From Nitrososphaerota archaeon (GTDB lineage: Archaea; Thermoproteota; Nitrososphaeria_A; Caldarchaeales; Calditenuaceae), in NCBI GenBank assembly GCA_038741355.1, contig JAVYLC010000002.1:8738-72737 (forward strand): 64,000 bases of DNA, read 5' to 3'. Positions 43,252 to 58,237 of this stretch are shown here, piece after piece (position 1 is the stretch's first letter; the number at the start of each line of letters is the position of its first letter). Under the pieces are notes generated by a model. That model was given only the letters and a program-made list of their open reading frames with translations. It was not told the DNA's origin and searched no databases. Both the position numbers and the translations under genes were made by a program.

Positions 43252-43757
43252 GCAGGATAAGTACTTCCACTGTTCCTATATTACTTTTCACTTTCAACAA
43301 AAAAATTCAGTGTTGTTGTGGAATCCACAACACAACTACCTATCTACTTACCCATGAATAAAGAATGAGGACCTAAATATTGAGGGAAGGTTAAGGTGTT
43401 TCGGCCCGTTATACCTCTACGCTTCTCATAGAGCTTTAAAAATATATTTGGTGAACTTCAGGTTGGTTGTCCCTCCAGTTTATAAGAGGTCGGCCCACAA
43501 AAAGTCTAGACCAGCCTTTCACACCGCCGGGGCTTCTCAAAGAGAGCGACCATGGCTCCAGAGCATGGGTAAAGTAGAATACAGATAGAAGTGAGCAGAG
43601 CAGAATATATCAGACTAGGCTGGATGGTCTGGAACCCGTCTATCGTTGGGCTGCTTATCGTCTTTTAGCCATGTCTGCCAGCGGTATTCATGTGGGCAGA
43701 TTTTGAGTGGCTTTAGCGTTAGGGGGGTTGTAAAGGTTATATAACAGGCCCAATAGT

Positions 43758-44231: not shown

Positions 44232-44505
44232 TAATATAAATTTTTCCCGTGATCTAACTTTTAAGAATCACACCATTTTTATATGCGTAGATATTGTGCG
44301 TAAATCCTCTAGTTTACTAGTTACAAAAACTCCGGCTAACCATATTTCAGTGGGATGCTGGTCCAACCCAAGACTCACTATGCTGACTTACATAGGGAAG
44401 ACAGGGAGTTATAACAAATATGCGCGCTGGAGCATATATTGAAGAAATTGTTAAATAATCCAATGTGTAATGACGGTATCCCGGTCTTAAGGACATAGCC
44501 ATCTT

Positions 44506-45107
44506 TAACATTGGCTCTGTTAACTTAAGGCTTTTGGTCTAGGGCTGTGGTTGTTTGGTCATGTTTGTTGGGCAGAGGACGGCTTTACCCGTGGTCCTCT
44601 ACGGGCTTTACCTCGTAGCCCTAGGCCTAGGCTTCGGGAGTGCAGCTATGGCTCTTAAACCTTTCGTAGACAGGAGTCATGTGGCTGTCTGGAAGTGGGT
44701 TCAGAGGCTTCTAGGATTCAGGAGGATCTTCGGGGCTAGGTGCAGGGTATCCCTATCCTCTTGGATGAGACGGCTGTCATGGTTAAAGGCCTCCTAGCAT
44801 GGGTGTGGGTTGCATATGAGCCTTTCAGCAAAAGAACCCTGGTATATTGGAGCATGCGCTAGGCTTGGTCTAACCCATCACAGATACAGGTTTGGGGATT
44901 GGCTCTTCCAAGCAATTGAGAGGGCTGTACAGATGCTCAAGGACAGGACGGAAAACTTCGACGACTACTTCCCATGCAGAAAGAAAGCATGCATTCTAGG
45001 GCATGTATGGAGCTGGCTGAACCTATTCCACATATTCAACCAGCCAGAGACGCTACATCTGATGAAGACCATAACAGGGGTGATAGAGATGGCTTAAGTT
45101 AACAGAG
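44506..45107 (+). mobile_element. degenerate IS6-family insertion sequence, copy 1
   Basis: Imperfect terminal inverted repeats: ggctctgttaacttaagg at 44508-44525 and cttaagttaacagagcc at 45090-45106. Flanked by TTAACATT at 44498-44505 and 45111-45118. Confidence 0.6.
44555..45097 (+). pseudogene. IS6-family transposase, frameshifted (two ORF pieces)
   Basis: The pieces 44555-44797 and 44810-45097 align with the intact neighbouring transposase (FVDRSHVAVWKWVQR versus FRVSHQSVRGWFLR). This is the IS6 HTH signature VS/DHSTIyRWVQk. Confidence 0.6.
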
Positions 45108-45118
45108 CCCTTAACATT

Positions 45119-45768
45119 GGGACTGTCAACTTAAGGCCACCCATGACCTTATCCACTTCTCTGATACCTTAGGCCTGTATGTTGGGGAGCATGTGTTGAA
45201 CTGTTTTATTCTTCTCTTGAGCTTGCTGAACCAAGACTCTATCGCGTTCCTCCTGCCGAATGTCTCTACCCTCCTCCTAAAGCCCAGAATCTTCATGGGC
45301 CATCGGTACCATGGAGCCCTATCCGTGTAGACGGTAGGGTTATTAGCGCACCTATCCCTAACCACCTCAAGGAACCTTATACACTCGGCTATCCCCCTAC
45401 CCCTAGATACCTGGACTGCCATCACCTCCCTAGCAGCCCATAGATAGGCCCTCCTGACGAGATTACGGATTACTATCGGCCCACGCCTACGCCTATCTAC
45501 AAGTGAGAAGGCCTCACCAGCCCTAAGGAACCAACCCCTAACAGACTGATGGCTCACCCTGAATCCTAGCTCTCCTAAGACCTCTGCAACCCCTCTAAGA
45601 CTGAGCCCCCTCCACATACATCCTGACAGCAAGCCCCCTAACCCATGAAGGATAACGCATACGAGGAAAGACACTTCTATCACCAAAGAAACCCATAAGA
45701 CGGCCTAGGCCGACCCCAACTCTATCCACCCCCAACTAATGGGAAGGCCCAGACCATAGACCTTAAGT
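45119..45768 (-). mobile_element. IS6-family insertion sequence, copy 2 (intact)
   Basis: Perfect 18-bp terminal inverted repeats: GGGACTGTCAACTTAAGG at 45119-45136 and CCTTAAGTTGACAGTCCC at 45751-45768. An 8-bp direct repeat TTAACATT flanks both sides, which is the TSD length typical of IS6. Confidence 0.7.
45126..45686 (-). CDS. IS6-family DDE transposase (short form, 186 aa)
   Basis: HTH motif LGFRVSHQSVRGWFLRAGE. TDRAPWY. C-terminal RRNAIESWFSKLKRR resembles the IS6 N.IE..H..IKRR catalytic E/K region. Confidence 0.65.
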   Translation of the reverse strand: MVIEVSFLVCVILHGLGGLLSGCMWRGLSLRGVAEVLGELGFRVSHQSVRGWFLRAGEAFSLVDRRRRGPIVIRNLVRRAYLWAAREVMAVQVSRGRGIAECIRFLEVVRDRCANNPTVYTDRAPWYRWPMKILGFRRRVETFGRRNAIESWFSKLKRRIKQFNTCSPTYRPKVSEKWIRSWVALS

Positions 45769-45827
45769 TGACAGTCCCTTAACATTTGAAGAAAAGCTTA
45801 AATCATAATGCAGAGGGATAGTTAAGT

Positions 45828-46163
45828 ATGGCTGACAAACCTATAAAGAGGCTGTTCTCATGGCTTTTACTAAGCACGAGGGGTGGACCTACACGTCTTC
45901 TAATACTTTTACTTCTCCGGAAAGGGTCAGCCAACGCTAATCAGATAGCGAATTCGCTTCATCTCCACTATAAAACTGTTCAATATCACTTGGAGGTTTT
46001 ATTGGAGAATAAGCTAGTCGAAGCTGATGACGTGAAATATGACGTAAAATATAGGTTATCCCCGCTCGTCCTTGCAAACATGGATGTTTTCGAGTCATTA
46101 ATAGATGAGATTTTCTCACATAGAGAAGAGAAGGTGAGTATAGTGTGGGACCTCTCTGGATAA
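45828..46163 (+). CDS. winged helix-turn-helix transcriptional regulator (ArsR-like)
   Basis: 111 aa. NQIANSLHLHYKTVQYHLEVLLENKLV is an HTH recognition-helix pattern. Confidence 0.5.
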   Translation: MADKPIKRLFSWLLLSTRGGPTRLLILLLLRKGSANANQIANSLHLHYKTVQYHLEVLLENKLVEADDVKYDVKYRLSPLVLANMDVFESLIDEIFSHREEKVSIVWDLSG

Positions 46164-46429
46164 CTAATATTGTAGTATCTATCATGATTGTTTTAGGTCT
46201 TTTATACTCGCTAAGAAACTATCTAATAACGCGAAGGCTTGCCAGAACCAAATTTACAAACGCTCTTGTCGCATTAACGGCGATTTTCTTACTCCAAAAC
46301 GTTTACGCTGCATACATGTTCTACGTGCTCTCTTGGAGCTATGATGTGGAGATAGCTTATCCTCTTCTAATGCTAAATCTTCTCGGCCTAGCTGGCTTCA
46401 GCATATTCGTATATCTTTCACACGTATAA
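46145..46429 (+). CDS. small membrane protein (3 TM)
   Basis: Hydrophobic 94-aa ORF. Overlaps the regulator gene by 19 bp. Confidence 0.3.
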   Translation: MGPLWITNIVVSIMIVLGLLYSLRNYLITRRLARTKFTNALVALTAIFLLQNVYAAYMFYVLSWSYDVEIAYPLLMLNLLGLAGFSIFVYLSHV

Positions 46430-46790
46430 AGCCAGTATTTGACAGAAACATTACAAAACTCGGGCCAGTATGGCGGCTCATCACTAATTTTCAAAGACGC
46501 AGGAACAATTAGGGTGAGACCTACATAGAGAGGATGGGGTTTATAGGTGTGATGGAGAGTGGGGAATGTATTCGTCTGTCCTTGGACCTCCTAATTGGAA
46601 GCTTTCGTTTATATGTGTCGCAGTGTCGATAAGACTTCGCAGGCACTATCGTAATAGATCAGCTAGCACGTATGCTCACTACAGCCCGGCCCACTACATC
46701 TCAAGCCAAGGATACGCTGTATGTCATACATTTTTAAGGTTTTGAAGATTTGGGGGAAAGATTAACTTTAGGTCTGAAGTTTTATCTGAG

Positions 46791-47942
46791 ATGTTGAATT
46801 ACTTAAAGAAGCGTGAAGTGTTTATCTCTGTTCTACTTCAGCTCGCTCTAGCATTCTTCTTCGCTCATGGATATGATTTCCGTGTAAACTATCTGGCTGG
46901 AAGAAATATTGTTTTAGGTTTGTCTCCTTACCAGGGCGGATATTTAGAGGGGCCGTTGGCTGTAGGGTATGGCCCGTATGTGCAGGGTTTGGGTGAAACT
47001 CCTTTGTGGGCCCTTTACGCAGGACTAGCGTACATTGCATCAGCAGGCAACTTATTCCTCTTTAACTTGATTCTAAAGATACCTATCATCATTGCGAATG
47101 TAGCCCTCAGCTTTCTTACAATGAAAAAAGGTGGCGACAGTTTCTTCTTCCTCTACAATCCATACCTTCTCTTAGTCTCTGCAGTATGGGGAAAACCTGA
47201 TAATGTGGCAGTATTGCTCGCAGTAGCATCAATTACCATATTGCATAGATACTATGGCTCTTTGTCGGTGGCTGTATCGGTGATGATCAAGCCGCTGGCT
47301 CTTGTAATGGCGCCATCATTCATACTGGCTTGGTGGAAAGAGAAGGAAAAAATATTCATCGCTTTTGTAGCGTTGGTTCTGATGTTTTTTACACCTTTCG
47401 TCTTATTGAACTGGAGGTTGGAGACTGTCGTCTATGGATTTCCTAACTGGTTTAGATCAGTTGGTGGGATATCTCCGTTTGATTTTGTAGAAGCAGTTTA
47501 CGGGACATCAACCGTACCCACGTGGCTTGAGCCTATATCATATCTTTCGGCGGTCTCTCTAGCGGTTATGGTTATGTTGGCGATTAAGCGCCCACCGACG
47601 AGTATTGATGGTATATTCCGTCTAGGTCTTGTCTCTGCATCTCTTTTCTTTAGCCTTCGCCCATGGGTGTCGGAGCAAAACCTTCTCATCATTTTGTCGC
47701 TTTTTATCATTGTCTGCGGCAGACTGCCTTCCCGGCTGCTTTGGATAATTCCTTTGATATTCGCTGGTCTTAATCTATCGATACCACAACAGCTATATCT
47801 TTTATATCCCTCAATAATTGAGGATCTTATTGCTTTAAATCATCCTATCAGGTACTGGCTTAAGTTCGTAGTGTCGGTAGCCTGGGTTATTGTTCTATGG
47901 ACGGTGCTGGTTAAAAAGTGTCTGTGGAAGTGGTGGATTTAA
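46791..47942 (+). CDS. polytopic membrane protein, possible GT-C-type glycosyltransferase (DUF2029/PMT-like)
   Basis: 383 aa with ~10 TM segments. An acidic first loop (HGYDF) and W-rich periplasmic loops are present. No definitive motif was found. Confidence 0.35.
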   Translation: MLNYLKKREVFISVLLQLALAFFFAHGYDFRVNYLAGRNIVLGLSPYQGGYLEGPLAVGYGPYVQGLGETPLWALYAGLAYIASAGNLFLFNLILKIPIIIANVALSFLTMKKGGDSFFFLYNPYLLLVSAVWGKPDNVAVLLAVASITILHRYYGSLSVAVSVMIKPLALVMAPSFILAWWKEKEKIFIAFVALVLMFFTPFVLLNWRLETVVYGFPNWFRSVGGISPFDFVEAVYGTSTVPTWLEPISYLSAVSLAVMVMLAIKRPPTSIDGIFRLGLVSASLFFSLRPWVSEQNLLIILSLFIIVCGRLPSRLLWIIPLIFAGLNLSIPQQLYLLYPSIIEDLIALNHPIRYWLKFVVSVAWVIVLWTVLVKKCLWKWWI

Positions 47943-48595
47943 AGATAGTCGTTAGAGGATTAGCGGCTGTACATATTTTATGGGGGCTATCCCTTCTACT
48001 AGAGCCTACTAGGTATGTTTCTAAACCTATCATACCTGCTTTATTCGCGTCTATACATTTTATAATCTTCCTCCTACTGTTGACTCATGAGAAGTACGGA
48101 GCTGTTTTGGGGTCTGTTTTTCTAACCTACTATTGGTTTTTTGTTAAACCTATCGCGCCGATAGCTGAGCCTCAAACAGTTGGGATACTTAGCATCACAC
48201 TATCCATTCTAACACCATATGCCCCAAAACTGTCGCCAGATAAACATGGAACAATTCAGGATGCTCTACTGAGACTTGGCTTGGCCTATCCCTTTATTGA
48301 GTGGGGGTTAGATGCTTTCCGTAACCCTCTTCATTTCAAATCATATCTTTCTGGAAATGTTATAACATCTTTTCTTATACCGACAGGTCTCCTCGACCTG
48401 GCTGTATTATGTCTTGGTTTATTTGAAGTTTCTCTATCGCTTCTAATTTTGACAGGTTTTAAGAGGCGTGTAGTCTCGTTCCTGACATTCTCTGTATTGA
48501 TTGTTTTTTCCTTAGTGGCCGGCTATCCACTCGCGCTACCTCAGAACATAGCTCTCATGGGCGTTGCATATATTTGGCTTAAGCCATCTTCTTGA
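47918..48595 (+). CDS. membrane protein (DoxX-like, 5-6 TM)
   Basis: 225-aa hydrophobic ORF. Overlaps the upstream gene by 25 bp. Confidence 0.35.
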   Translation: MSVEVVDLKIVVRGLAAVHILWGLSLLLEPTRYVSKPIIPALFASIHFIIFLLLLTHEKYGAVLGSVFLTYYWFFVKPIAPIAEPQTVGILSITLSILTPYAPKLSPDKHGTIQDALLRLGLAYPFIEWGLDAFRNPLHFKSYLSGNVITSFLIPTGLLDLAVLCLGLFEVSLSLLILTGFKRRVVSFLTFSVLIVFSLVAGYPLALPQNIALMGVAYIWLKPSS

Positions 48596-49958
48596 ACTTA
48601 TGATCTGTGTAGAATTCCCATGGCTTCAGCAATATATAAAATGGTCCAATCTTTTTCCTCAGCTTGGCTTGGGTCACAGCTTTCCACATGCCATACTTGA
48701 GTTTCTCTATGCTGAAGTCGTGTTTAAAGAGTAGGCGATGGTCATAGCCGTGAAGGGGTTTCTCCCATTCCTCTACAAGCATCTTATCTTTTACCATTTC
48801 ATAAAGTTTGGTTCCAGGAAGCGGGTAAGGTACTGTCATGGAGAAATAGTCAAGGGGGAGGCTTGACGCCATTTTTATTGTTTTTAGCATTGTCTCGTTT
48901 GTCTCACCAGGATATCCGAGTATGAAAAACGCGCCAACTTTTATGCCGGCCTTAACACCCGTATAAACAGCTTTCTTAGACTGCTCAACTGTCAGTCTTT
49001 TATTCATGAGTTGAAGCGTCCTATCATCGCCTGCCTCGAGTCCGAAAATTATTTTATGGCATCCTGCGCGTTTCATGGCTTTAGCGACCTCTGCGTCGAA
49101 CAGATCAGCCCTAGCCAGACACTCCCATAGGATGTCCAGCTTCCTATCCATTATTTCGCGACATAGCCGTAGAACATGTCTTTTATTGGCTATAAACAGC
49201 TCATCAGCAAACCATATCCTTTCATAGCCAAACTTATACCGTATCTCCTCCATCTCGTCGACTATGTTTTCAGGGCTTCTTGTACGATAAACGCGGCCGT
49301 AGTCTGGCCGCCAGCAAAAACCGCATGAAAAAGGGCAGCCCCGCGAGGCTATCATCGAGGTCATGGTGTATCCGTAGTTTCGGAGATAGTACCGCTTATA
49401 GTGATCGTTATCATATAGATCCCTAGCCGGGAAGGGTAGGTCGTCTAAGTTTTTTATGAGAGGCCTTTGCCCCGTGAAGAAGTGACTGTCACTGTTGGCT
49501 GGAACAGCTTGGGTGGTCTTTTTTAAAAATTGCCCAGAAATGTGCAGGCCTTTAACACGCTGGAATTTCATGCTGTTATCTAATTCGGTCATTAGCTCAA
49601 GCATTGCTTCCTCACCTTCACCCTGAACAGCGATATCGAATAGGCCGAGGAATTTTGCCGGATATGCTGAAGGCATGGGTCCACCGGCGACAAGTAGCTC
49701 TACCTTCTCCCTTAGCGCAGAGGCTATATCCAATGCCGGCTTCACCATCGAAAGCATGCTGTAGATGCCTACTACCCTTGACTGCGCCGCTTCTCTTATA
49801 ACGTCTTCTATTTTTTTGAATGTACAGTCAATGATTTTGACTTTGTATCCATGCATTCTAATATACGATGCAATATATCCTATGCCCAGCGGTGGAAACT
49901 TAAAAGATCTAGACCTACCGTCATCGAAGTATGGAAAGATGAGCGCTAAGTCATTCAA
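48579..49958 (-). CDS. B12-binding domain radical SAM protein (class B rSAM)
   Basis: N-terminal cobalamin-binding Rossmann-like region (LGIGYIASYIRMHGYKVKIID). The radical-SAM motif CPFSCGFC follows. 459 aa. Confidence 0.8.
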   Translation of the reverse strand: MNDLALIFPYFDDGRSRSFKFPPLGIGYIASYIRMHGYKVKIIDCTFKKIEDVIREAAQSRVVGIYSMLSMVKPALDIASALREKVELLVAGGPMPSAYPAKFLGLFDIAVQGEGEEAMLELMTELDNSMKFQRVKGLHISGQFLKKTTQAVPANSDSHFFTGQRPLIKNLDDLPFPARDLYDNDHYKRYYLRNYGYTMTSMIASRGCPFSCGFCWRPDYGRVYRTRSPENIVDEMEEIRYKFGYERIWFADELFIANKRHVLRLCREIMDRKLDILWECLARADLFDAEVAKAMKRAGCHKIIFGLEAGDDRTLQLMNKRLTVEQSKKAVYTGVKAGIKVGAFFILGYPGETNETMLKTIKMASSLPLDYFSMTVPYPLPGTKLYEMVKDKMLVEEWEKPLHGYDHRLLFKHDFSIEKLKYGMWKAVTQAKLRKKIGPFYILLKPWEFYTDHKFKKMA

Positions 49959-50730
49959 GCTGTTTAAACACCAGCCGGTAACGAAGTGTGTCCTTCTCTT
50001 CCGGAAATTCTAAGCTTACGCCGGCCCAGTCGAGGCGGTTACCAAGCACCTCCCTGCCGGCAAAGGACTTAACATCATCTGGCCTATCAATAATCATCGA
50101 AAGTTTTAGAGAAGGTGAAACTAGTTCGACAACACCGTTTTCAAGTTTCATCCAAGGCGGCAGGTTCTTCTTTACGCCCTCAATTCTCATGTATGTGAAC
50201 AACCTCCCTGAGAGCTCATTTGCGACAAGAACGCGCATATTCTTGGGTGTATCTCGCCTAGCAGTAACTTCTACCTCGGATCCATTTATTCTGTACATCA
50301 GATGTACTGATCCATATGCCTTTAGTTGTATGTAGCGGCTTTTTACACCTAAGAGTGTACGTCCAGTCATTAACATGAAGTATAGTGGCCTAAGCGCCTT
50401 GCTCTGTAAGTAGAGAGGTGACAACAGTCTCTTTAGCTTCCTATAGAGTTTATCGATACACGCTTTTGAGAGGTATTTTACTGATACGCCGTCTAGCTGG
50501 ATTTTTCTGGCTATGAATCCATTATTAATTTGACGTGTCTCAGCCGTGAGTGGGAAAAGGGTCCTCCTACCTAATATTCCCACAACACCTCCTAACCCTA
50601 TCCCCTCGCCAATCAAAGCTAAGCCATCTAAAACTGGCACAAGACCACGTACAACACCCTCGATCTCATGTGAAGGGGTAGAAGGTGTGTTAAATGTAAA
50701 GAAAAGTCTCTCGACTAGTCTACTCATCAA
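49951..50730 (-). CDS. hypothetical protein, 8-bp overlap with the B12-rSAM gene (probable partner)
   Basis: 259-aa ORF immediately upstream of the rSAM gene on the same strand. No recognisable motifs. Confidence 0.4.
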   Translation of the reverse strand: MMSRLVERLFFTFNTPSTPSHEIEGVVRGLVPVLDGLALIGEGIGLGGVVGILGRRTLFPLTAETRQINNGFIARKIQLDGVSVKYLSKACIDKLYRKLKRLLSPLYLQSKALRPLYFMLMTGRTLLGVKSRYIQLKAYGSVHLMYRINGSEVEVTARRDTPKNMRVLVANELSGRLFTYMRIEGVKKNLPPWMKLENGVVELVSPSLKLSMIIDRPDDVKSFAGREVLGNRLDWAGVSLEFPEEKDTLRYRLVFKQLE

Positions 50731-50881
50731 GCAGCGGCTCCTGTCTTTAGTAGATAATGTTTTTCCGAAATTTCACGATGTTAAAAATGTTTAAACATCG
50801 TTTAAATGCAGATGCCCTCATTTTCTATTACTCCTAATTTGGGAAAACTCTTTTGTCCTCCCTTCCTCCATTACAGCGTTA

Positions 50882-52804
50882 ATGATGTTTTTACAGTCTA
50901 TGATAACTTTAGCTTTCATGGCTATTTCAGTCATTCTCCCCCTCTATATCGTGGCATATGTTCATCTACTCATTCTATCGCGACGATATACACAGCCATC
51001 AAGAACGACACTTCAGCGATACCCTAAAGTCTCTGTCCATCTACCAATCTTTAATGAGAAACATGTTGTCGGGAGGCTGATAGAAGCTGTGTGCAACTTA
51101 ATCTATCCATCAGACAGGCTTGAGATAATAATCATAGACGACTCTGTAGATGAAACATCATCTATATGTGAAGAACTAGTCAGAAAGTATAGAGCCAAAG
51201 GGATAAACATTGTTCACATCAAGCGTAATGATAGGAAAGGGTTCAAGGCAGGCGCCCTCCAGTATGCTCTCCAAAACTCAAGCGGCGAGTTTATAGCAAT
51301 TTTTGACGCAGATTTTATCCCGCAACCAAGCTTTCTAATACAAATCCTCCCCTACTTCACAGATAGCCGGATTGGGGTAGTTCAAGCAAGGTGGGGGCAT
51401 CTAAACAGATACTACTCCCCTTTAACAGCCGCACAAGCGCTCAGCCTAGACCTCCATTTCACCATTGAGCAGAGAGGGCGTTCATCTAGATACTTTTTGA
51501 ATTTCAACGGCACGGCTGGTGTTTGGAGAAGAGCATGCATAGAGGACGCTGGCGGATGGATAGACTCTCTAGCCGAGGACCTTGACCTGAGTTATAGGGC
51601 CCAGCTAAAAGGTTGGCGTATTGTTTACATCGATGATTTAGTCGTTCCAGCCGAGGTTCCCGTGCAGATGAAAGCGGTGCGCAGACAGCAATATAGATGG
51701 GCTTACGGATCAATTCAAACAGCTATAAGATACATGTCTCAAATTCTCCTATCACATCTTCCCAGCCTCGTCAAGATACATGCCATAATTCATCTTACTA
51801 GGCATTTACCTCAGTTACTCTTAACTGTCCAAGTTTTAATGATTCCTTTAGTTGTAAGTTCGGGGGTTCAAGCTCGCTTTGACATAATGCTTGGATGGGT
51901 GGTGTTGTATCCATTGTTATTAACATCATCACTTCTTCTCACAGCTGAAAACCATCTTAAAAAAACATACAGCAGCCTGCTAAAATTTGTTAAAGATGTG
52001 CTACTGATGTTTTTATGGGGGATGGGCATGTCAGTTAACAACTCATTGGCTGTCATCCATGCTTTTTTGAAAAAAGATTTAGAGTTTGAGAGGACTCCGA
52101 AGTTTGGCATAGTGGGTAAAAAAGGCAACTGGCGATGGAGTAGCTATGCTCTATTGAATGAACCCAACATCGTCTTTGACCTCGCAATGGGAGTATACAG
52201 CCTTTACGCTTCTCTATACTGTTTCTATACGAGGGCCCTTTACTTCCTACCTCTAACCACATTATATTCTAGCTCCCTATTCTACACTGTTTTCGCCTCA
52301 ATAATCCAGACAGCACGTCGAGGTAGGCAAACACACCGATGGCCACGCACTGATGTCCTTGCTATCATTTTAGCGGCGGTGTTTGTAGTAATTTCTTTCC
52401 ATTCATTTGCGATGATCGTGTATCCATTAGAGACGGCTATCGCAGCTATTGAAAAAGCCTCAACTTCAGTCGATAACGTTTACATGGTTAAACAACTTGA
52501 TGATGCACTTGCCCACCTCCCATCGCAAGGTAACCCTGTATGGGTGCTGCCGACTGCAAACACGGACTATCAGCTCATTAGATACGATTTGCAATCCATT
52601 AAAATAAGGCTCTTAAATGTATACAAAAACGATTACTTCACATATCACTCTGTCACAGAGGATGCTAGATACGCCTTAGAAGTAGTAGTCGGCCAGTTGC
52701 GACGAATACAACCGTTTGCATGGCTTAGTGTCTGGAACCTATCAGCATCACTTATTGTAGTATATTCAGTGTTTTATTTCGTGGTGAAAGAAAGTCATGC
52801 CTAG
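50882..52804 (+). CDS. processive family-2 glycosyltransferase (cellulose/chitin/hyaluronan-synthase-like) with C-terminal membrane extension
   Basis: GT-A motifs in order: IIIIDDSVDET, FDADF, and RRQQYRWAYG (Q-x-x-R-W). TM helices flank the catalytic domain. A ~250-aa C-terminal extension carries additional TM helices. Confidence 0.8.
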   Translation: MMFLQSMITLAFMAISVILPLYIVAYVHLLILSRRYTQPSRTTLQRYPKVSVHLPIFNEKHVVGRLIEAVCNLIYPSDRLEIIIIDDSVDETSSICEELVRKYRAKGINIVHIKRNDRKGFKAGALQYALQNSSGEFIAIFDADFIPQPSFLIQILPYFTDSRIGVVQARWGHLNRYYSPLTAAQALSLDLHFTIEQRGRSSRYFLNFNGTAGVWRRACIEDAGGWIDSLAEDLDLSYRAQLKGWRIVYIDDLVVPAEVPVQMKAVRRQQYRWAYGSIQTAIRYMSQILLSHLPSLVKIHAIIHLTRHLPQLLLTVQVLMIPLVVSSGVQARFDIMLGWVVLYPLLLTSSLLLTAENHLKKTYSSLLKFVKDVLLMFLWGMGMSVNNSLAVIHAFLKKDLEFERTPKFGIVGKKGNWRWSSYALLNEPNIVFDLAMGVYSLYASLYCFYTRALYFLPLTTLYSSSLFYTVFASIIQTARRGRQTHRWPRTDVLAIILAAVFVVISFHSFAMIVYPLETAIAAIEKASTSVDNVYMVKQLDDALAHLPSQGNPVWVLPTANTDYQLIRYDLQSIKIRLLNVYKNDYFTYHSVTEDARYALEVVVGQLRRIQPFAWLSVWNLSASLIVVYSVFYFVVKESHA

Positions 52805-53288
52805 GAAACTACTCTATGTATCTGTATATTTGTTTGTAGGTGTGGCCCTCATATCTGCTGCGTACATTCTAGACGTATACCCACTTGAGCAGGCGGCCGG
52901 CTTCCTCAGCAGAGCGCAGTCGGCTGGATACGCAGAAGACATGGCTGCATACGTTGCTCAAGCCTTGCACTTCATACCCCGTGAAGGGAATCCCGTCTGG
53001 CTATTCCCCACACAGAGAACTGACTTCGCCCTGATAAGAAACGACATTTTTGCCATAATTGACAGATTGAATAGCCTAACTGATATTCCACGCCAGAGTG
53101 CTGCATACGCACAGACTCTAAACGATATAAGGGGAAAAATTGCTGTATTAACCAGCCAGCTCTACGAAGCAATGCCCTACATGTTTTTTAAACCAATCAA
53201 TATAATAGCCGCAATAGCCTATCTGCTTACACCCATTATCATACAAACAAAAATTAACAGACAAAAAAGTCACGCTAAAAAGGCTTAA
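52797..53288 (+). CDS. membrane protein paralogous to the C-terminal module of the upstream GT2 synthase
   Basis: VYPLEQAAGFL...REGNPVWLFPTQRTDFALIRNDIFAIIDRL aligns with the GT2 C-terminus VYPLETAIAAI...SQGNPVWVLPTANTDYQLIRYDLQSIKIRL. Its coordinates overlap the GT2 gene by 8 bp. Confidence 0.5.
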   Translation: MPRKLLYVSVYLFVGVALISAAYILDVYPLEQAAGFLSRAQSAGYAEDMAAYVAQALHFIPREGNPVWLFPTQRTDFALIRNDIFAIIDRLNSLTDIPRQSAAYAQTLNDIRGKIAVLTSQLYEAMPYMFFKPINIIAAIAYLLTPIIIQTKINRQKSHAKKA

Positions 53289-53393
53289 GTAAGAGTTGCC
53301 AATTACTGATCATAAATGGTTTTTAAAGCATTTTCCCGACACTTCCATTTATTGGTAGTTTCAGAATTTTTTTAAGCCTCAAAGCAGTAACCA

Positions 53394-56300
53394 TTGATGA
53401 ATTTGATTGATGGAAGATTTCTGAAGGAGCGAGGATACGATGTTTATAATGGAAACGAACTAGTAGTAAAAGGCGCACTAGAGGCCGGCATACCAATAGC
53501 ATCTGGCTATCCGGGTTCTCCAGTTGCTGAGTTTTTCACATTTACTGAGAAATACGCAGATTGGCTTGCAGAAAATGGATTTTATTGGGAAGCTGCAAAA
53601 AACGAGGCCGAAGGAGCAGGTAGGCTCAATGGCGCAAGAATTATCAACAAAGATGCAATGGTTGTCATGAAGAGTGTCGGATTAAACGTCGCTACTGACC
53701 CCTTGGAAATTTCTAATTATCAAGCAGCTGCAACTATTGGATGGGGTGGAGTTGTTGTAGTTGGGGATGATCCGCATGCTTCTAGCACACAGATTGCTTC
53801 CAGCTCAAGACTTCTGCTAAAGAAGCTTAGGATACCAATTTTAGAGCCTAGTACTCCGCAAGAAGTGAAAGATTACATTGGAGAAGCATTGGAATTATCA
53901 CGGTCATCGCAGTTAATAGCCGGATATATCATCCAATCATGGCAAGCTGATGGAATAGGGTCGGTGGAACTCTATAAAAACAAATATCCGACTAGAGTGA
54001 AAGAAAGGATTGATATAAGTAAAATAAATGTGGAGAAAGAAGTAAGCCTTCCTCCGGTTACTGCGGAGTTAGAAAAAGATATTGTTATAAGGAGGTTTCC
54101 GGCCGCGGTAAGTCATGCAAGAAGAAGGAATCTGAATCGAATACTTTATTCGGATGGTGGAAAAAGGAAGATTGGATTCGTTACCTCTGGTCTGGCTTAT
54201 AACTATCTCGAACAAGCATTGTATGAGTTGGGAATGCAGGGAAGACTTCCTATTCTAAAACTGGGACTGGTTTATCCACTTGATGAGAATTTAGTGAAAG
54301 ATTTTGCAAGACAAGTTGAAAACATTTATGTCGTAGAGGAAAAAGAGCCTTTCATAGAGTCTGAGATTTCTCTTATTCTGAGAGACGCTTACCAAAACAA
54401 AGAAATCGAATATGTTAACGTTTGGGGCAAAAGATTCCCTAACGACAGGGAGGGCTTCCCTGAACACGGCGGTCTGAGTCCCACTATTGTGATTAAGATA
54501 ATAGGTGAAGAGCTACTCAATGCTTTAGATGATTTGTCTTATGAAGAGAAAAGTAGAATTAATAAGGTCCTCGAACTAGTCGAGGACGCTAACAAATATT
54601 CCTTACAGCCTCCAAAAAGGATTCCTACCTATTGTGCAGGCTGCCCACACAGGGGGACTAGTAGTGTTCTTAAATATTTGAGGAGGTCTCCTGGAAATGA
54701 TTTCCTCACAGTACCAGACATCGGGTGCTATTCAATGTCGGCTTTTACTCCGTGGAAGGAGGCCCACGCTTTCAATGCAATGGGTCGTGCAGGAGCCTCT
54801 GCATATTCCATGGGGGTAGTAGAAAACAAGAAAGTTCTTCTCGTTGGTGATGGAACTTTCGTCCACGGCGGCTATGTGTCTGTACAGGAAGCTATAGACA
54901 AAAATCTAGACGCCATCATAGTTATACTTTATAATCACTATGTGGCCATGACCGGGCATCAAAAAGTTCAGATAAAGGATGCAAAAGATATAGAGGAAAA
55001 AGTAAAAGCGATGGCGAGAGGAAAGGATGTCTATGTAAGAATAATAGATCCAGATGATAGGAAAGGCTACATTGAAGAAATGAAAAAACTGATGAATAGA
55101 AAAGGTACAGCTGTACTGATCTCGGATAAGGAATGCGGTATAACTAGGGAAAGGAGAAGGAGGGCTGAGAGGGCGGGAAAACCTAAGACGGAATTCATAA
55201 ACATAACTAACGAAGTATGTGAGAACTGCAGGGAGTGCACCATGAACACAGGCTGCCCAGGGTTAACTCTTGTAAACACGCCGTATGGCGAAAAAGTTGC
55301 GATAGACATGTCAATATGCACAGAGGATGAGTACTGTGCGAAAATAGAAGCCTGCCCCTCATTCGAAAGAGTTAGGGTGCACTACGCAGGAGGGAAACCA
55401 AAGGAGAGATTGCTTGATTCAGAACTGGATGGTGTGCCAGAACCTGATAATAAGGTAGAGTTTAACGATACTTACTCTATTTACACCGCAGCTGTTGGCG
55501 GTATGGGTGGTGGGCTGCTCTCCGTGATTTTGGCTCGAGCTGGAGCGAAAAGCGGCTATAATATAGGTAGATGGATAGGACACGATAAAAAAGGATTAGC
55601 CATAAGAAATGGCGGTGTTTACAGTCATATAATATTTTCTAAAAACGATGCACAATTATCTCCTGTTATTGTAGCCGGCAAAGCTGATCTAATAATTGGT
55701 CTTGACAAGCTTGAAGGCTCAAAGGGGTTAAAGTATGCTAACGCTAGTACAAAATTTGTTTCAAATCAAACAGAGCTACCTACCATACCTATGCTCATAG
55801 GAGAGGAGGAATATCCACACGATATTGACGAAAAAATTAAAAATAGGTTGACATCATATAATAATTATGGGCTGCCGATTTCGGAGCTTGCAGAGTTTTA
55901 CTTAGGAAACAAACTATTTTCCAACATAGTCATGCTGGGAGTCTGCTATCAGCTCGGCCTATTACCATTGGACTCTAAAAATATAGAGGATGCGATAATT
56001 GAATCAGTCAAAGCAGAGCGGGAGAAAAATCTAAGGGCTTTCAAGTTTGGAAGGAAGCTTGTGTATGACAGTACTTTTTTGGATAAGCTAATAAACAATC
56101 CTCATTTCCTAAGAATATACCATGAACACATGTGGTTTTCAAGAAGATCTCTGGAAGAGGTACTCTATGAGAAGAAGGACTATCTGAAAGATTACTATTT
56201 GATAAAGTCTAGGGGGTTGAAAATTGCTAATATGTATGAAAAACTAATAAAAGATTTTAAGAATGATAAAAAGTTGGATGAAGATGCCTTGAAACATTTT

Positions 56301-57041
56301 GCTATAAGGGTTTATGACTTGATAAAATGGGGCGGCATAGACTATGCTAAAAAATATGTGGAGTTGGTCTCCAAGGTTTATTATAAGGATAAAGAGGAAA
56401 AAGGATTTGCGGCTACCAAAGCTGTTATAGAAAATTTATACAAGGTAATGGCTATAAAGGATGAGTTATGGGTTTCCGAGCTACTATTAAGCAGAGAGAA
56501 GCTGGAGAGAGACAAGATTAAGTACAATGTACATGAGGAGCGAGGTGATAGTATAGAGTATATTCATTTAACAAGGCCGCAGATAGTTATAAGTGTTGGG
56601 AAACCTTTGGGAAAAATCATAAAATTCTTGAAAAAGAACTTGCCAAATTTGGCAAACAAAAAGATTGAGCTAGACGTTGAAGATGGCATGCTCAAAGTCA
56701 AATTAGTTATGAATACCAAAAATTGGCAGCTCCGAATCATCAGGAGGATGAAGTTTCTCCGGAAATATTTGTTTAGACATAAGAAGGAAGAAGAATTCAG
56801 AGACTGGTATGTTGAAAGGGTCATAAGTTACTTCCTCGAAAATTCTGAACAAAATTATGAGCTTGCTGTAGAGTTTCTTAAGATGCCGCTTAGTTTTAAT
56901 GTTCCAGCACATGCTAAGGGCATTACTGGATTCAGGGAAGTTATATATCCTAAAATGGACTTAGCGAGAAAAACTTTTGAGAACCTAACTTCTACCTCGA
57001 ACCTTGTTTCCGAGTTAGAGCCTGTCGGCAAAAAGCAATGA
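53394..57041 (+). CDS. fused indolepyruvate:ferredoxin oxidoreductase-family protein (2-oxoacid:Fd oxidoreductase, bacterial long form)
   Basis: 1215 aa. N-terminal IorA signature GNELVVKGALEAG...GYPGSP. TPP/Fe-S region CAGCPHRG and CENCRECTMNTGCPG. IorB/POR-gamma-like AVGGMGGGLLS. ~350-aa K-rich C-terminal extension. Low GC. Confidence 0.8.
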   Translation: MMNLIDGRFLKERGYDVYNGNELVVKGALEAGIPIASGYPGSPVAEFFTFTEKYADWLAENGFYWEAAKNEAEGAGRLNGARIINKDAMVVMKSVGLNVATDPLEISNYQAAATIGWGGVVVVGDDPHASSTQIASSSRLLLKKLRIPILEPSTPQEVKDYIGEALELSRSSQLIAGYIIQSWQADGIGSVELYKNKYPTRVKERIDISKINVEKEVSLPPVTAELEKDIVIRRFPAAVSHARRRNLNRILYSDGGKRKIGFVTSGLAYNYLEQALYELGMQGRLPILKLGLVYPLDENLVKDFARQVENIYVVEEKEPFIESEISLILRDAYQNKEIEYVNVWGKRFPNDREGFPEHGGLSPTIVIKIIGEELLNALDDLSYEEKSRINKVLELVEDANKYSLQPPKRIPTYCAGCPHRGTSSVLKYLRRSPGNDFLTVPDIGCYSMSAFTPWKEAHAFNAMGRAGASAYSMGVVENKKVLLVGDGTFVHGGYVSVQEAIDKNLDAIIVILYNHYVAMTGHQKVQIKDAKDIEEKVKAMARGKDVYVRIIDPDDRKGYIEEMKKLMNRKGTAVLISDKECGITRERRRRAERAGKPKTEFINITNEVCENCRECTMNTGCPGLTLVNTPYGEKVAIDMSICTEDEYCAKIEACPSFERVRVHYAGGKPKERLLDSELDGVPEPDNKVEFNDTYSIYTAAVGGMGGGLLSVILARAGAKSGYNIGRWIGHDKKGLAIRNGGVYSHIIFSKNDAQLSPVIVAGKADLIIGLDKLEGSKGLKYANASTKFVSNQTELPTIPMLIGEEEYPHDIDEKIKNRLTSYNNYGLPISELAEFYLGNKLFSNIVMLGVCYQLGLLPLDSKNIEDAIIESVKAEREKNLRAFKFGRKLVYDSTFLDKLINNPHFLRIYHEHMWFSRRSLEEVLYEKKDYLKDYYLIKSRGLKIANMYEKLIKDFKNDKKLDEDALKHFAIRVYDLIKWGGIDYAKKYVELVSKVYYKDKEEKGFAATKAVIENLYKVMAIKDELWVSELLLSREKLERDKIKYNVHEERGDSIEYIHLTRPQIVISVGKPLGKIIKFLKKNLPNLANKKIELDVEDGMLKVKLVMNTKNWQLRIIRRMKFLRKYLFRHKKEEEFRDWYVERVISYFLENSEQNYELAVEFLKMPLSFNVPAHAKGITGFREVIYPKMDLARKTFENLTSTSNLVSELEPVGKKQ

Positions 57042-57165
57042 AGTGACAATTATCCTCTCCTCGCTAACTGAAAGATGGTAGACCTCTAGCAAGCCCAGTG
57101 CGCTAAACCAATTTTCTCAACTCTTTCACCACACATATTAACCCTCTTGGAATCGTTTGGGGTGG

Positions 57166-57193
57166 GGGATTGGCATCCCCCACCCGACAAGGC
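57166..57193. repeat. GC-rich perfect hairpin (11-bp stem, 4-nt loop)
   Basis: ggggtgggggat tggc atcccccacccg. Lies 125 bp downstream of the IOR stop, at the island boundary. Confidence 0.4.
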
Positions 57194-57364
57194 CGGGCTG
57201 CCGAGAAGTAGGGTGAGAAGATGTCCACATCTTCTTCCTAGAGAACTGAGGATAGAACTGTACTATGAGGTTGGAGGGCTGAGGAGGCAGGGACTATCAT
57301 ACTGAAGAATCATAGGCTCTGTGAGGGAGAGATATGGTGTTGTATTACAAAAATCCCACATTAG

Positions 57365-58237
57365 CTACTGGGTCAGAGGAATACACAGCCCATACAACTG
57401 CATAGAATACCTTCAATAAAGTTTCTAAAACCTTCTGAGGAGCCTGCGTATGTTGTAGGTGTAGTTGCTGGAGAAGGTTATGTCCTGCGGCGGCGACGGC
57501 TTCGAAAATCATACCACGAAGTGTATGTAGGGTTGAAAGTTAGGGATAGGGAGTTTGCTGAGGAGTTCTCAAGATGTCTTGCAGTAGTCTTGAAGAGAGA
57601 ACCGCCTAAACCTGCTGATCCTAGGTCGTCGGGAGGACGATTCGTCGTCGAACTAGAAAGTAAGGTCCTCTACGAGCTGCTGAAGAAGCCTTTAAGGCTG
57701 GAGAAGATCAAAAAGTTTATAGAACACTCTAACCGATGTAAATCGGCCTTCCTGAGAGGCTTCTTCGACAGCGAAGGAAGCGTAGATGAGGACGGAGAAG
57801 TAACAGTCTATAACACCGACTTAGCCCTGCTTAGATACGTCAAACAACTTCTCTCTTCTCTAGGGATAGAGACTACAGGACCACATCTCTACTCAAGGCG
57901 TGGAACGGCCTTCAGAGACCCGAGGACGGGAAAAACATATAGGACTAAGAAGGACGCATATGGGTTATATGTTACCGCTGGCTCTCGGCTGATGTTCTAC
58001 AATCGCGTAGGATTCACGGTGAGAAGAAAACAGCAGAGGCTGGAGAACTACCTCACAAGGACTGGACGGCTAAAACCCCCAGCCAACCCACCCCCCATCT
58101 CTTCCCAACCACATCACGATCACGATAATAATGTACAAGGTACGGGCCCGCTGGGACTTGAACCCAGGACCTTCGGCTCCGGAGGCCGACGTACCAGAGA
58201 TATTACATGCATAATATCTTCTCTGTGTCCATGCTGA
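57365..58237 (+). CDS. double-motif LAGLIDADG homing-endonuclease-like ORF; no canonical start codon upstream of motif 1 (possibly decayed)
   Basis: Motif 1 PAYVVGVVAGEGY at 57443-57481. Motif 2 SAFLRGFFDSEGS at ~57737-57775. Their ~99-aa spacing resembles I-DmoI-type enzymes. The frame is open from 57365, but the first ATG/GTG/TTG is the GTG at 57521. The 3' end runs antisense through the tRNA. Confidence 0.55.
   Translation, partial: LLGQRNTQPIQLHRIPSIKFLKPSEEPAYVVGVVAGEGYVLRRRRLRKSYHEVYVGLKVRDREFAEEFSRCLAVVLKREPPKPADPRSSGGRFVVELESKVLYELLKKPLRLEKIKKFIEHSNRCKSAFLRGFFDSEGSVDEDGEVTVYNTDLALLRYVKQLLSSLGIETTGPHLYSRRGTAFRDPRTGKTYRTKKDAYGLYVTAGSRLMFYNRVGFTVRRKQQRLENYLTRTGRLKPPANPPPISSQPHHDHDNNVQGTGPLGLEPRTFGSGGRRTRDITCIISSLCPC

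What the first reader, a model, noticed from the sequence alone, without database searches (positions are those of the whole stretch)
50882..53288. Processive GT2 synthase whose C-terminal TM-plus-~100-aa module is duplicated as a separate downstream gene
The 640-aa GT2 protein has the DDS, DAD and QQYRW motifs of processive beta-glycan synthases such as cellulose, chitin and hyaluronan synthases. After the catalytic and TM core comes a C-terminal module: TM helix, VYPLETAIAAI..., SQGNPVWVLPTANTDYQLIRYDLQSIKIRL, then a terminal TM helix. The next gene overlaps by 8 bp and encodes a 163-aa protein with the same module in the same order: VYPLEQAAGFL..., REGNPVWLFPTQRTDFALIRNDIFAIIDRL, then a terminal TM helix. 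The conserved core GNPVW-(L/V)-(L/F)-PT--TD(Y/F)-LIR-D is alignable by eye. I do not recognise this module as a described domain. It could be a regulatory, polymer-translocation or oligomerisation domain of an archaeal processive synthase, present once fused and once free. That arrangement hints at hetero-oligomer formation between the two proteins.
Basis: seen in the sequence. Interest (0 to 1): 0.7.

Follow-up and report, generated by a model that had tools for sequence, protein, structure and literature searches.

The report
Archaeal sugar-polymer synthase with duplicated outer module
A cellulose-synthase-like membrane enzyme found in nearly all ammonia-oxidising archaea and their relatives needs a previously undescribed small outward-facing helical module, which is fused to the enzyme, encoded as a separate gene just downstream, or (as here) both.

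Summary
The 640-aa GT2 (50882-52804) and the overlapping 163-aa ORF (52797-53288) share a TM / ~105-aa domain / TM module: BLASTP E=9e-16, profile-profile E=1e-27, ectodomain-only p~2e-14.

The module matches no Pfam, NCBIfam or PDB family. AlphaFold models it as an extracytoplasmic four-helix bundle between two TM helices, with the GNPVW-x-FPT-x-x-TDF motif on a loop.

The module is not a local oddity. It is the signature partner of one BcsA-like GT2 family across the whole phylum Nitrososphaerota.

- It is usually fused to the GT2.
- It is often a separate gene directly downstream of a core-only GT2 (gap -44 to +8 nt).
- It is sometimes an orphan gene.
- In the Caldarchaeales loci recovered (this window is one) it is usually present twice. 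The free copy keeps the canonical motif. The fused copy is derived and evolves faster. Both are under purifying selection.

Best reading: the module is an accessory ('co-polymerase-like') subunit, analogous but not homologous to BcsB or PgaD. Hetero-oligomerisation of the two copies is plausible but untested. The enzyme's product is unknown.

Verdict: a new variant of a known kind, of moderate to high interest.

The parts
50882..52804 (+). BcsA-like membrane-integrated GT2 (640 aa) with a fused C-terminal module. The core is residues 1-~480: N-terminal TM, GT-A domain, interface helices, four further TM helices, and the gating-loop-like FERTPKF at 402-408.
   Evidence: ORF. Pfam PF13641, PF00535, PF13632 and PF13506. 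Invariant motifs in 115 homologues. AF2 pLDDT 89.4, pTM 0.85. Foldseek best match BcsA 4p00_A, E=1.2e-18.
52349..52801 (+). Fused copy of the module (residues 490-640): TM helix 495-513 continuous with alpha1, then alpha2, a loop, alpha3, alpha4 and TM helix 617-639. A disordered, Arg-rich cytoplasmic linker (478-489) precedes it.
   Evidence: Hydropathy. AF2 helices H490-527, H532-545, H563-578, H585-614, H617-639, with pLDDT <50 at 482-487. Conserved in all orthologues.
52529..52570 (+). Loop motif of the fused copy, GNPVWVLPTANTDY (residues 550-563). This is the derived form of the family motif.
   Evidence: G550, N551, P552, V553 and W554 are nearly invariant in 115 homologues. Motif comparison across loci.
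52797..53288 (+). Free copy of the module (163 aa): TM 6-24, four-helix ectodomain 25-130, TM 131-151, basic cytoplasmic tail.
   Evidence: ORF. Homologues. AF2 pLDDT 97.1, pTM 0.87. dN/dS 0.13-0.19 against L001.
52986..53027 (+). Loop motif of the free copy, GNPVWLFPTQRTDF (residues 64-77). This is the canonical form of the family motif.
52797..52804 (+). 8-bp overlap between the GT2 stop codon and the small-protein start codon. Translational coupling is likely.
   Evidence: Sequence. The same kind of junction (8-bp, or 4-bp ATGA) occurs in L001, L004, L007 and L012.
46791..50730 (.). Conserved neighbours, given as context. They are not shown to belong to the same system. They are a 383-aa unknown (46791-47942 +), a DoxX-like 225-aa membrane protein (47918-48595 +), a B12-binding radical SAM protein (48579-49958 -) and a 259-aa unknown (49951-50730 -).
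   Evidence: Pfam and NCBIfam. The same gene set lies beside the GT2 in L001 and L004-L008 and, rearranged, in deep-branching Nitrososphaerota L087 and L098. It is absent beside the GT2+small pair in L012/L013.

Best explanation
The 640-aa protein belongs to one family of BcsA-like, membrane-embedded GT2 enzymes that is conserved across the phylum Nitrososphaerota. Members occur in Caldarchaeales/'Aigarchaeota' and in ammonia oxidisers such as Nitrososphaera, Nitrosopumilaceae, Nitrosopelagicus and Nitrosocaldus.

This family has an obligate partner: a two-TM hairpin carrying a ~105-residue four-helix bundle on the outer face of the membrane. A nearly invariant loop, G-N-P-V-W-x-F-P-T-x-x-T-D-F, lies between helices 2 and 3.

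Shown:
- The partner is encoded as a C-terminal fusion, as a separate gene directly downstream of a core-only GT2, or as an additional free paralogue.
- In the window's lineage both a fused and a free copy exist, and both are kept by purifying selection.
- The free copy keeps the canonical motif. The fused copy has diverged.

Inferred:
- The module acts as an accessory or 'co-polymerase-like' subunit. Its TM hairpin would pack against the five-TM core of the synthase and help complete or stabilise its membrane part.
- Its ectodomain would sit at the outer mouth, where the conserved aromatic and polar loop could contact the emerging sugar product.
- This would be analogous to BcsB (tail anchor plus periplasmic domain) or PgaD, but not homologous to them.

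Further inferred and weaker: in Caldarchaeales the functional unit contains at least two non-identical modules (fused plus free). These would form a hetero-oligomer that arose by duplication and subfunctionalisation.
For: Paralogy.

Topology:
- Basic residues flank the outer ends of both TM pairs, namely RRGRQTHRWPR before TM 495-513, MPRK at the N-terminus and KINRQKSHAKKA at the C-terminus of the small protein. These stretches are read from the translations; one search gives only the TM segments.
- In BcsA-like enzymes the GT domain and gating loop are cytoplasmic. This places the bundle outside.

Fold: AF2 gives pLDDT 97.1 for the free protein and 89.4 for the GT2, with the same helix pattern in both copies.

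Core: the GT2 core resembles BcsA in sequence and structure, including the TM region and all motifs.

Rosetta-stone evidence:
- About 100 of the 120 best GT2 homologues carry the fused module.
- All 246 genome hits are in Nitrososphaerota.
- Of the 80 genome loci kept, 58 are fused only, 11 are fused plus an adjacent free copy, 2 are split and 9 are orphan free copies.
- In 16 of 31 metagenome loci the free module follows a core-only GT2 of the same family. The gap was measured for 15 of them and is -44 to +8 nt.
- The split form in L150 lies in the same synteny as the fused forms of Nitrososphaerales.
- The GT2+small pair persists where the other neighbours change.

Selection and asymmetry:
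- dN/dS is 0.13-0.19 for both ectodomains. The fused ectodomain's dN is 1.4-1.9 times that of the free one.
- In the loci tabulated, single-copy lineages and the free copy of nearly all two-copy loci keep the canonical motif. The fused copy is derived in most two-copy Caldarchaeales. L040 is mixed (fused LFPT..TDY, free ..TDY).
- The fused Caldarchaeales modules form a clade (95% bootstrap). The free ones form a separate clade.

Recurrence: Nitrososphaera MAGs carry a fused GT2 plus an unlinked free paralogue.

Precedent: synthase-dependent systems need small inner-membrane co-polymerases. BcsB is sometimes fused to BcsA. E. coli has up to six BcsB per BcsA (PMC8892547).
Against: - The packing of the module against the core, the position of the loop relative to any channel, and any fused-free contact are therefore unobserved.
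- The product, and hence processivity, is unknown.
- Orphan free copies exist far from any GT2 (L042, L047, L053 and others). More distant family members sit next to ClpB or in runs of small unannotated ORFs. The module may therefore have roles independent of the GT2.
- The deep branches of the module tree are poorly supported (11-29% bootstrap). The timing and origin of the free copy are not resolved.
- Four Nitrososphaerota loci (L056 and L080, which are Caldarchaeales, plus L087 and L098) show only the fused copy. A second module is therefore not generally required.
Confidence: 0.55

Rival explanations
1. The module is an extracytoplasmic sensor domain. It would resemble the TM / four-helix-bundle / TM sensor modules of chemoreceptors and histidine kinases, and would gate the synthase in response to an external ligand. 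The free copy would act as a co-sensor or decoy.
Confidence: 0.15
2. The GT2 is not a polymer synthase. It is a lipid glycosyltransferase acting on hexosyl-archaeol/GDGT or a polyprenyl-phosphate sugar. The outer module would help present or translocate the glycosylated head group. This rival concerns the product, not the partnership.
For: - The family is retained even in streamlined marine ammonia oxidisers such as Nitrosopelagicus (L089, L093). That suggests a core envelope or lipid function.
- One source names the HR02 orthologue 'Beta-monoglucosyldiacylglycerol synthase'.
- PF13506 (GT21, ceramide glucosyltransferase) matches, and there is a weak HpnI match.
- In Caldarchaeales and deep lineages the GT2 sits beside a B12-binding radical SAM protein. 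This is the broad class that contains the GDGT ring synthases GrsA/B (PMC13459092).
- In a Methanofastidiosia MAG the core-only GT2 is followed by an MptA/B-family GT-C. Such enzymes use lipid-linked sugars.
Against: - The best sequence and structure matches are BcsA, then PgaC, HAS and CesA. The BcsA alignment spans 522 columns, which may extend into the TM region, and the gating-loop motif is present in the sequence.
- All NCBIfam scores are far below the cut-offs, so none of the names is reliable.
- Orthology of the radical SAM neighbour to Grs or Cds was not tested.
- That neighbourhood is absent in L012/L013 and in Nitrososphaerales.
Confidence: 0.3
3. The free copy has no functional tie to the neighbouring GT2. 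It would be a leftover of a fission or duplication event, or it would serve another partner, and the adjacency would be historical.
For: Orphan free copies and distant members occur in unrelated contexts. The free copy is more similar to the modules of other lineages than to the neighbouring fused copy.
Against: The overlapping stop/start junction is conserved in every junction examined, in five loci including the window. The 11 two-copy loci show adjacency but their junctions were not all checked. The pair stays together when the other neighbours change. There is strong purifying selection. The same position is occupied by the only module copy in split lineages.
Confidence: 0.1

Closest known systems
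BcsA-BcsB bacterial cellulose synthase (synthase plus tail-anchored co-polymerase)
   Same: - The GT2 core shares the fold and the motifs DxD, KAG, (T)ED, QxxRW and the FxVTxK-like loop.
- A membrane-anchored partner with an extracytoplasmic domain is encoded directly downstream, or fused in one polypeptide. BcsB is likewise sometimes fused to BcsA (PMC8892547).
- The number of partner copies per synthase can exceed one: up to six BcsB in E. coli, and fused plus free here.
   Different: - The module is a ~105-aa four-helix bundle between two TM helices. BcsB is a ~700-aa protein of jellyroll and flavodoxin-like domains with a single C-terminal anchor. No sequence or fold relationship was found.
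- There is no PilZ domain and no other c-di-GMP module.
- The core has five TM helices, not eight.
- The organisms are archaea without an outer membrane, and the product is unknown.
PgaC-PgaD and IcaA-IcaD (PNAG synthases with a small two-TM partner)
   Same: A GT2 synthase with few TM helices depends on a small integral-membrane partner encoded next to it. This is stated for PgaC-PgaD in PMC8892547. IcaA-IcaD rests on my own knowledge. PgaC is the second-best NCBIfam match of the core.
   Different: PgaD senses c-di-GMP at a membrane-proximal composite site with PgaC (PMC8892547), which I read as cytoplasmic. To my knowledge it has no sizeable outer domain. Here the conserved part is an outward-facing helical bundle. 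No homology was detected.
PcManGT of Pyrobaculum calidifontis (PDB 6yv7), an archaeal GT2 labelled mannosyltransferase in the PDB
   Same: An archaeal GT2 that matches the core of this family in sequence and structure (E=2.5e-12; Foldseek E~6e-14, TMt 0.77).
   Different: It is 346-356 aa and matches only the core region. It has no C-terminal module. Whether it has a gating-loop motif was not examined here.
Four-helix-bundle periplasmic sensor domains (chemoreceptor and histidine-kinase type)
   Different: There is no sequence relationship or Pfam match. The resemblance is no better than to cytochrome b562 or designed bundles. The module is attached to a glycosyltransferase, not to a signalling output.

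Membership tests
Membrane-integrated processive GT2 synthases (BcsA/CesA/HAS/Chs/PgaC type) | GT-A catalytic domain of family 2 with DxD-type motifs | tested here: met
   PF13641 at 6e-32, PF00535 and PF13632. D86, D87, D142 and D144 are invariant in 115 homologues.
Membrane-integrated processive GT2 synthases (BcsA/CesA/HAS/Chs/PgaC type) | Q-x-x-R-W acceptor-binding motif and the (T)ED catalytic motif | tested here: met
   Q269, Q270, R272, W273 and E232, D233 are invariant.
Membrane-integrated processive GT2 synthases (BcsA/CesA/HAS/Chs/PgaC type) | Gating loop (FxVTxK in BcsA) between an interface helix and the last TM pair | tested here: met
   F402-x-R404-T405-P406-K407 is invariant. It lies in the loop at 397-428 between H384-396 and H429-449. 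That it functions as a gate is not shown.
Membrane-integrated processive GT2 synthases (BcsA/CesA/HAS/Chs/PgaC type) | Catalytic domain packed on a TM bundle that forms the translocation channel (overall fold) | tested here: inconclusive
   Foldseek to BcsA 4p00_A gives E=1.2e-18, 522 aligned columns, TMq 0.56 and rmsd 5.2. The core has only five TM helices.
Membrane-integrated processive GT2 synthases (BcsA/CesA/HAS/Chs/PgaC type) | Processive synthesis and export of a polysaccharide | not testable with these tools
   This needs biochemistry. NCBIfam scores for CelA, PgaC and NodC are far below their cut-offs, so no product can be assigned.
BcsB / PgaD / IcaD co-polymerase families (homology) | Sequence or fold similarity to one of these proteins | tested here: not met
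4HB_MCP-type sensor domains | Match to the family profile, and attachment to a signalling output | tested here: not met
   No Pfam hit at E<=10 or E<=1. The only domain ever attached is the GT2.
DUF2937 (label given by UniRef to P0006) | Match to the Pfam model of DUF2937 | tested here: not met
   P0006 scanned against Pfam at E<=10 gives only DUF6453 at 0.059. The label appears unfounded.
The new module family itself (TM / four-helix bundle / TM with a GNPVW-x-FPT-x-x-TDF loop) | Architecture plus loop motif, and association with the Nitrososphaerota BcsA-like GT2 | tested here: met
   Both window copies match the family HMMs, at 3e-52 and 3e-25. There are 243 cluster representatives at E<=1e-3. 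Fused, split and adjacent arrangements are documented.

The most novel reading that the evidence does not exclude
The GT2 plus its outward-facing module could be the so far unidentified machinery that makes the glycosidic head groups of tetraether (GDGT/crenarchaeol) lipids in Nitrososphaerota. It would also deliver them to the outer face of the membrane. A BcsA-like enzyme would add hexose from a cytoplasmic nucleotide sugar and thread the head group through its own TM conduit. The GNPVW bundle would receive it outside. The duplicated module of Caldarchaeales would adapt this to their lipids, next to a B12-radical-SAM lipid-modifying enzyme.
Probability: 0.1. Interest if true: 0.85.

Novelty: new variant of a known kind. 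Interest (0 to 1): 0.6.

Why it matters
Nitrososphaerota include the ammonia-oxidising archaea, among the most abundant microbes in oceans and soils. No published study of this enzyme family was found in the searchable literature.

This work defines a phylum-wide, apparently core, cellulose-synthase-like enzyme. It also defines a new, undescribed partner domain for it. Natural fusion, fission and duplication events give unusually clear genomic evidence that enzyme and module work together.

It points to an archaeal counterpart of the bacterial 'synthase plus co-polymerase' principle, built from a different fold.

It also provides concrete constructs for biochemistry and cryo-EM: fused forms, split forms, and fused plus free forms. 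Finding the product, whether an envelope polysaccharide or a glycolipid head group, would fill a gap in the cell biology of these organisms.

Tried and rejected
1. Searching the 5.8-billion-protein set with the fused module alone found nothing, not even the protein itself. This is a limit of the word-index step. The full-length query and the exhaustive profile search solved it.
2. A viral origin for the distant free members was not supported.
   - A DNA-pattern scan of IMG/VR gave 21 loci, all chance matches by HMM.
   - A second IMG/VR scan with alignment A9 found none.
   - tblastn against 50,697 phage records found none.
   - BFVD fold search gave nothing significant.
   - The virus-like look of L010, L115 and L117 therefore stays unconfirmed. 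Only weak PHROG hits to neighbours were found.
3. The search for related loci with very diverse alignments failed because no conserved stretch was available. Narrower alignments worked.
4. The afdb50 fold library was not available.
5. A recent tandem duplication of the neighbour's tail was rejected. The free copy is 32% identical to its neighbour's module but 38-48% identical to modules of other lineages. The two Caldarchaeales sets form separate clades.
6. P0009 (240 aa) first looked like a longer free form. It is the cut C-terminus of a fused GT2 at a contig edge.
7. The 'DUF2937' label was rejected.
8. Literature searches for this GT2 family in Thaumarchaeota, or for a GDGT glycosyltransferase, found nothing relevant.
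9. A complex prediction was not attempted. The structure tool returns no coordinates or contact data, and both jobs were needed for the two monomers.
Full report
**1. What is in the window**

Two same-strand ORFs occupy the stated coordinates. One is a 640-aa protein (50882-52804). The other is a 163-aa protein (52797-53288) that starts 8 bp before the first one ends. The window comes from a Nitrososphaerota (Caldarchaeales/'Aigarchaeota') metagenome-assembled genome. The small protein is 100% identical to NCBI 'QXM16_00875 [Nitrososphaerota archaeon]' and 79% identical to a protein of Calditenuaceae archaeon HR02.

**2. The similarity is real**

- BLASTP aligns GT2 residues 500-624 with residues 12-140 of the small protein at 33% identity, E=9e-16.
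- A profile of the fused modules of four orthologues against a profile of nine free proteins gives hhalign probability 99.8 and E=1.2e-27 over 128 columns.
- With the TM helices removed, the two ectodomains score 135 by Smith-Waterman, against 25.8 +/- 4.5 for 5000 shuffles (p~2e-14).
- The window holds one GT2 core and exactly these two module copies.

**3. The enzyme**

The N-terminal 480 residues match the GT2 Pfam families. Their best NCBIfam matches are CelA, PgaC and MftF, all far below the curated cut-offs. The best solved relatives by sequence are BcsA and the Pyrobaculum GT2 6yv7.

In an alignment of 115 homologues the following are invariant: D86-D87-S88, K122-A123-G124, D142/D144, E232-D233, Q269-Q270-x-R272-W273 and F402-x-R404-T405-P406-K407. 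The last resembles the BcsA gating-loop motif FxVTxK.

The AlphaFold model (pLDDT 89.4, pTM 0.85) is most similar to BcsA: 4p00_A, E=1.2e-18, 522 aligned columns, TMq 0.56. E. coli BcsA, PcManGT, hyaluronan synthases, plant CesA and chitin synthases follow.

The core has one N-terminal and four further TM helices, fewer than the eight of BcsA. The protein is therefore a BcsA-like membrane-integrated GT2. Processivity and product are not established.

**4. The module**

Hydropathy and the positions of basic residues place both ends of each TM pair in the cytoplasm (hydropathy; basic stretches read from the translations). So the ~105 residues between the TM helices face outward.

Both AlphaFold models show the same pattern (the free protein has pLDDT 97.1, pTM 0.87):
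- a TM helix running straight into alpha1;
- a short alpha2;
- a 16-residue loop with the motif GNPVW-x-(F/L)PT-x-x-TD(F/Y);
- alpha3 and a long alpha4;
- a kink, then the second TM helix.

Neither copy, nor any of 14 relatives tested, matches Pfam, NCBIfam or PHROGs. A 98-sequence profile finds nothing in the PDB. The UniRef label 'DUF2937' on one relative is not supported. The module is therefore an undescribed family.

**5. Distribution: the main new result**

*Fused forms.* A search with the whole GT2 shows that about 100 of the 120 best homologues carry the same C-terminal module with the GNPVW motif. They are 620-770 aa long and come from Caldarchaeum, Nitrosocaldus, Nitrososphaera, Nitrosopolaris and others. 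A minority of 476-505 aa lack it.

*Profile search.* An exhaustive profile search with the module finds 243 cluster representatives, 110 of them at E<=1e-10. Most of the 150 listed are free-standing proteins of 150-190 aa with the same architecture.

*Genome scan.* A scan of one genome per species finds 246 places, all in Nitrososphaerota. They include the marine Nitrosopelagicus, Nitrosopumilaceae and Cenarchaeum. The 80 loci kept fall into four classes:
- 58 have the fused form only;
- 11 have a fused GT2 plus an adjacent free copy, all from the Caldarchaeales group;
- 2 have a core-only GT2 followed by a free module;
- 9 have an orphan free copy with no GT2 within 5 kb.

*Metagenome scan.* In 16 of 31 loci the free module follows a core-only GT2 of the same family (HMM E down to 1e-218). 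The gap was measured for 15 of them and is -44 to +8 nt. The short GT2s (P0104, P0126 and relatives) are these split forms.

*Synteny.* On a 2.4-Mb contig the split pair lies in the same synteny as the fused genes of Nitrososphaerales: NAD kinase, rhodanese, a 4Fe-4S protein, then the GT2.

*Tree.* In a neighbour-joining tree of the modules, free and fused forms interleave, with 80-93% bootstrap at several nodes.

Fusion and fission of this pair have therefore happened repeatedly. This is classical 'Rosetta stone' evidence that the two parts work together.

**6. What is special about the window's lineage**

Most Caldarchaeales loci recovered carry both a fused and an adjacent free copy. The stop/start overlap is conserved in all five junctions examined: 8 bp in the window, L001 and L004, and 4 bp (ATGA) in L007 and L012. 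The pair stays together where the other neighbours differ (L012/L013).

The free copy is not a recent copy of the neighbouring tail:
- It is 32% identical to the neighbouring tail, but 38-48% identical to modules of other lineages.
- The fused Caldarchaeales modules form their own clade (95% bootstrap). The free ones form another.

Selection and motif asymmetry:
- Window against HR02 gives dN/dS of 0.14 (core), 0.19 (fused ectodomain) and 0.13 (free ectodomain).
- The fused ectodomain accumulates 1.4-1.9 times more amino-acid change than the free one in three comparisons.
- In the loci tabulated, single-copy lineages (fused or split) and the free copy of nearly all two-copy loci keep GNPVW-x-FPT-x-x-T(D/N)F.
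- The fused copy of most two-copy Caldarchaeales has changed to forms such as ..LPT..TDY or ..SDL. L040 is mixed: its fused copy reads LFPT..TDY and its free copy ends TDY.
- Two Caldarchaeales loci without a free copy (L056, L080), and two unclassified Nitrososphaerota MAGs (L087, L098), have the canonical motif in the fused copy.

This is the pattern expected after duplication with subfunctionalisation.

A second, independent case exists. Nitrososphaera MAGs carry a fused GT2 with the canonical motif plus an unlinked free paralogue with a derived one (L060/L095 and L054/L081).

**7. How it most likely works**

Shown: the paralogy, the outward-facing helical-bundle architecture, the obligatory association with this GT2 family, and the maintenance of both copies by selection.

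Inferred:
- The module is an accessory subunit whose TM hairpin adds to the small (five-helix) membrane part of the synthase.
- Its bundle sits at the outer mouth.
- The invariant aromatic and polar loop is the natural candidate for contacting the emerging sugar.

Bacterial synthase-dependent systems offer the precedent. BcsB, PgaD, Alg44 and PelE are inner-membrane co-polymerases needed for activity or stability. The BcsB tail anchor completes the BcsA membrane domain. BcsB is sometimes fused to BcsA. E. coli assembles up to six BcsB per BcsA (PMC8892547).

The module is not homologous to any of these. I put about 0.85 on a functional partnership of module and GT2. I put about 0.5 on a fused-free hetero-oligomer in this lineage, and about 0.35 on the specific 'outer cap or product contact' role.

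**8. Rivals**

- An external sensor role fits the topology but rests only on generic fold similarity.
- A lipid-glycosylating rather than polymer-forming enzyme is a serious alternative for the product. Supporting points are retention in streamlined genomes, the GT21 match, a source name 'monoglucosyldiacylglycerol synthase', a B12-radical-SAM neighbour of the class that includes GrsA/B (PMC13459092), and an MptA/B-type GT-C downstream in a Methanofastidiosia MAG. This alternative does not change the conclusion about the module.
- Independence of the free copy from the GT2 is unlikely given the conserved coupling.

**9. Limits**

- The tree is a bootstrapped neighbour-joining tree on 106 columns, with weak deep nodes.
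- Some 'free' metagenomic proteins may be fragments of fused genes. The split state is nevertheless secured by complete adjacent ORFs in long contigs (L049, L119, L128, L132, L134, L150).

**10. Verdict**

It is a new, phylum-wide accessory module of an uncharacterised BcsA-like archaeal enzyme. This window shows the two-copy (fused, derived plus free, canonical) state. It is a new variant of the known 'synthase plus co-polymerase' theme, with product and mechanism still open.

Noticed in passing
window 46791-50730; L001, L004-L008, L087, L098: A set of four genes travels with the GT2 in Caldarchaeales and, rearranged, in deep-branching Nitrososphaerota. They are a B12-binding radical SAM protein (459 aa), a 259-aa unknown, a DoxX-like 225-aa membrane protein and a ~383-aa unknown. 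The set is absent in L012/L013 and in Nitrososphaerales. It may be a lipid or head-group modification cluster. In some Caldarchaeum loci a PF04240 (carotenoid-synthesis-type) gene is inserted.
   Followed up: partly
window ~42000-58000; L001 1-6000: GC content is 0.40-0.47 across the cluster and the adjacent 1215-aa gene, against 0.50-0.56 elsewhere in the window. The HR02 orthologous locus shows the same drop. Caldarchaeum loci (L004, L007) do not. This is unexplained.
   Followed up: partly
L010/L011, L115/L116, L117, L138: Distant free-standing members of the module family (motif GNPxWWFPT ... YQQGLDDxRGK) sit in long same-strand runs of small ORFs without Pfam matches. A TFIIB-like gene, an AAA clamp-loader-like ATPase or a sigma-like protein lies nearby. 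The context looks like a mobile element or virus. No match was found in IMG/VR, phage genomes or BFVD.
   Followed up: partly
L137 5154-5645; L145 3076-3495: Two other orphan members lie directly beside a ClpB-type chaperone. In L137 there is also an HtrA-like protease and a small GT2. In L145 a Polysacc_synt flippase lies a few genes away.
   Followed up: no
L005 4068-5912: In one Caldarchaeum MAG the GT2 is called as two genes (459 + 153 aa). Near-identical loci L004 and L006 have an intact 640-aa gene. This is probably a frameshift or assembly error. If real, that genome would have two free modules.
   Followed up: no
L085 3287-5462 and L078 (same 52.6-kb contig): A Nitrososphaeraceae contig carries two copies of the system with the identical loop motif GNPVWIFPNPSTDF. 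One is an intact fused GT2. The other has its GT2 broken into two ORFs followed by a separate module gene. The second may be a decaying paralogue or a fission in progress.
   Followed up: no
L149 1160-3837: In a MAG labelled Methanofastidiosia, the closest core-only GT2 (476 aa, 42% identical) has no module downstream. Instead it is followed by a 415-aa MptA/B-family GT-C membrane glycosyltransferase. This hints at a lipid-linked sugar pathway outside Nitrososphaerota.
   Followed up: no
L059, L089, L103, L150 (upstream of the GT2): In Nitrososphaerales the GT2 is always preceded by a conserved 319-345-aa protein with a C-terminal 2x[4Fe-4S] ferredoxin domain, and further upstream by a rhodanese and NAD kinase. 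The link between an Fe-S protein and the synthase is unexplained.
   Followed up: no
window 53394-57041: A 1215-aa single-chain indolepyruvate:ferredoxin oxidoreductase family protein (fused alpha and beta parts) lies directly downstream of the small gene. In orthologous loci this position is occupied by unrelated genes.
   Followed up: no
window 50882 (start of the GT2): The NCBI gene model for this protein is 628 aa and starts 12 codons downstream. The conserved N-terminus M-x-F-L-Q-S-x-I-T of the orthologues supports the 640-aa start used here.
   Followed up: partly
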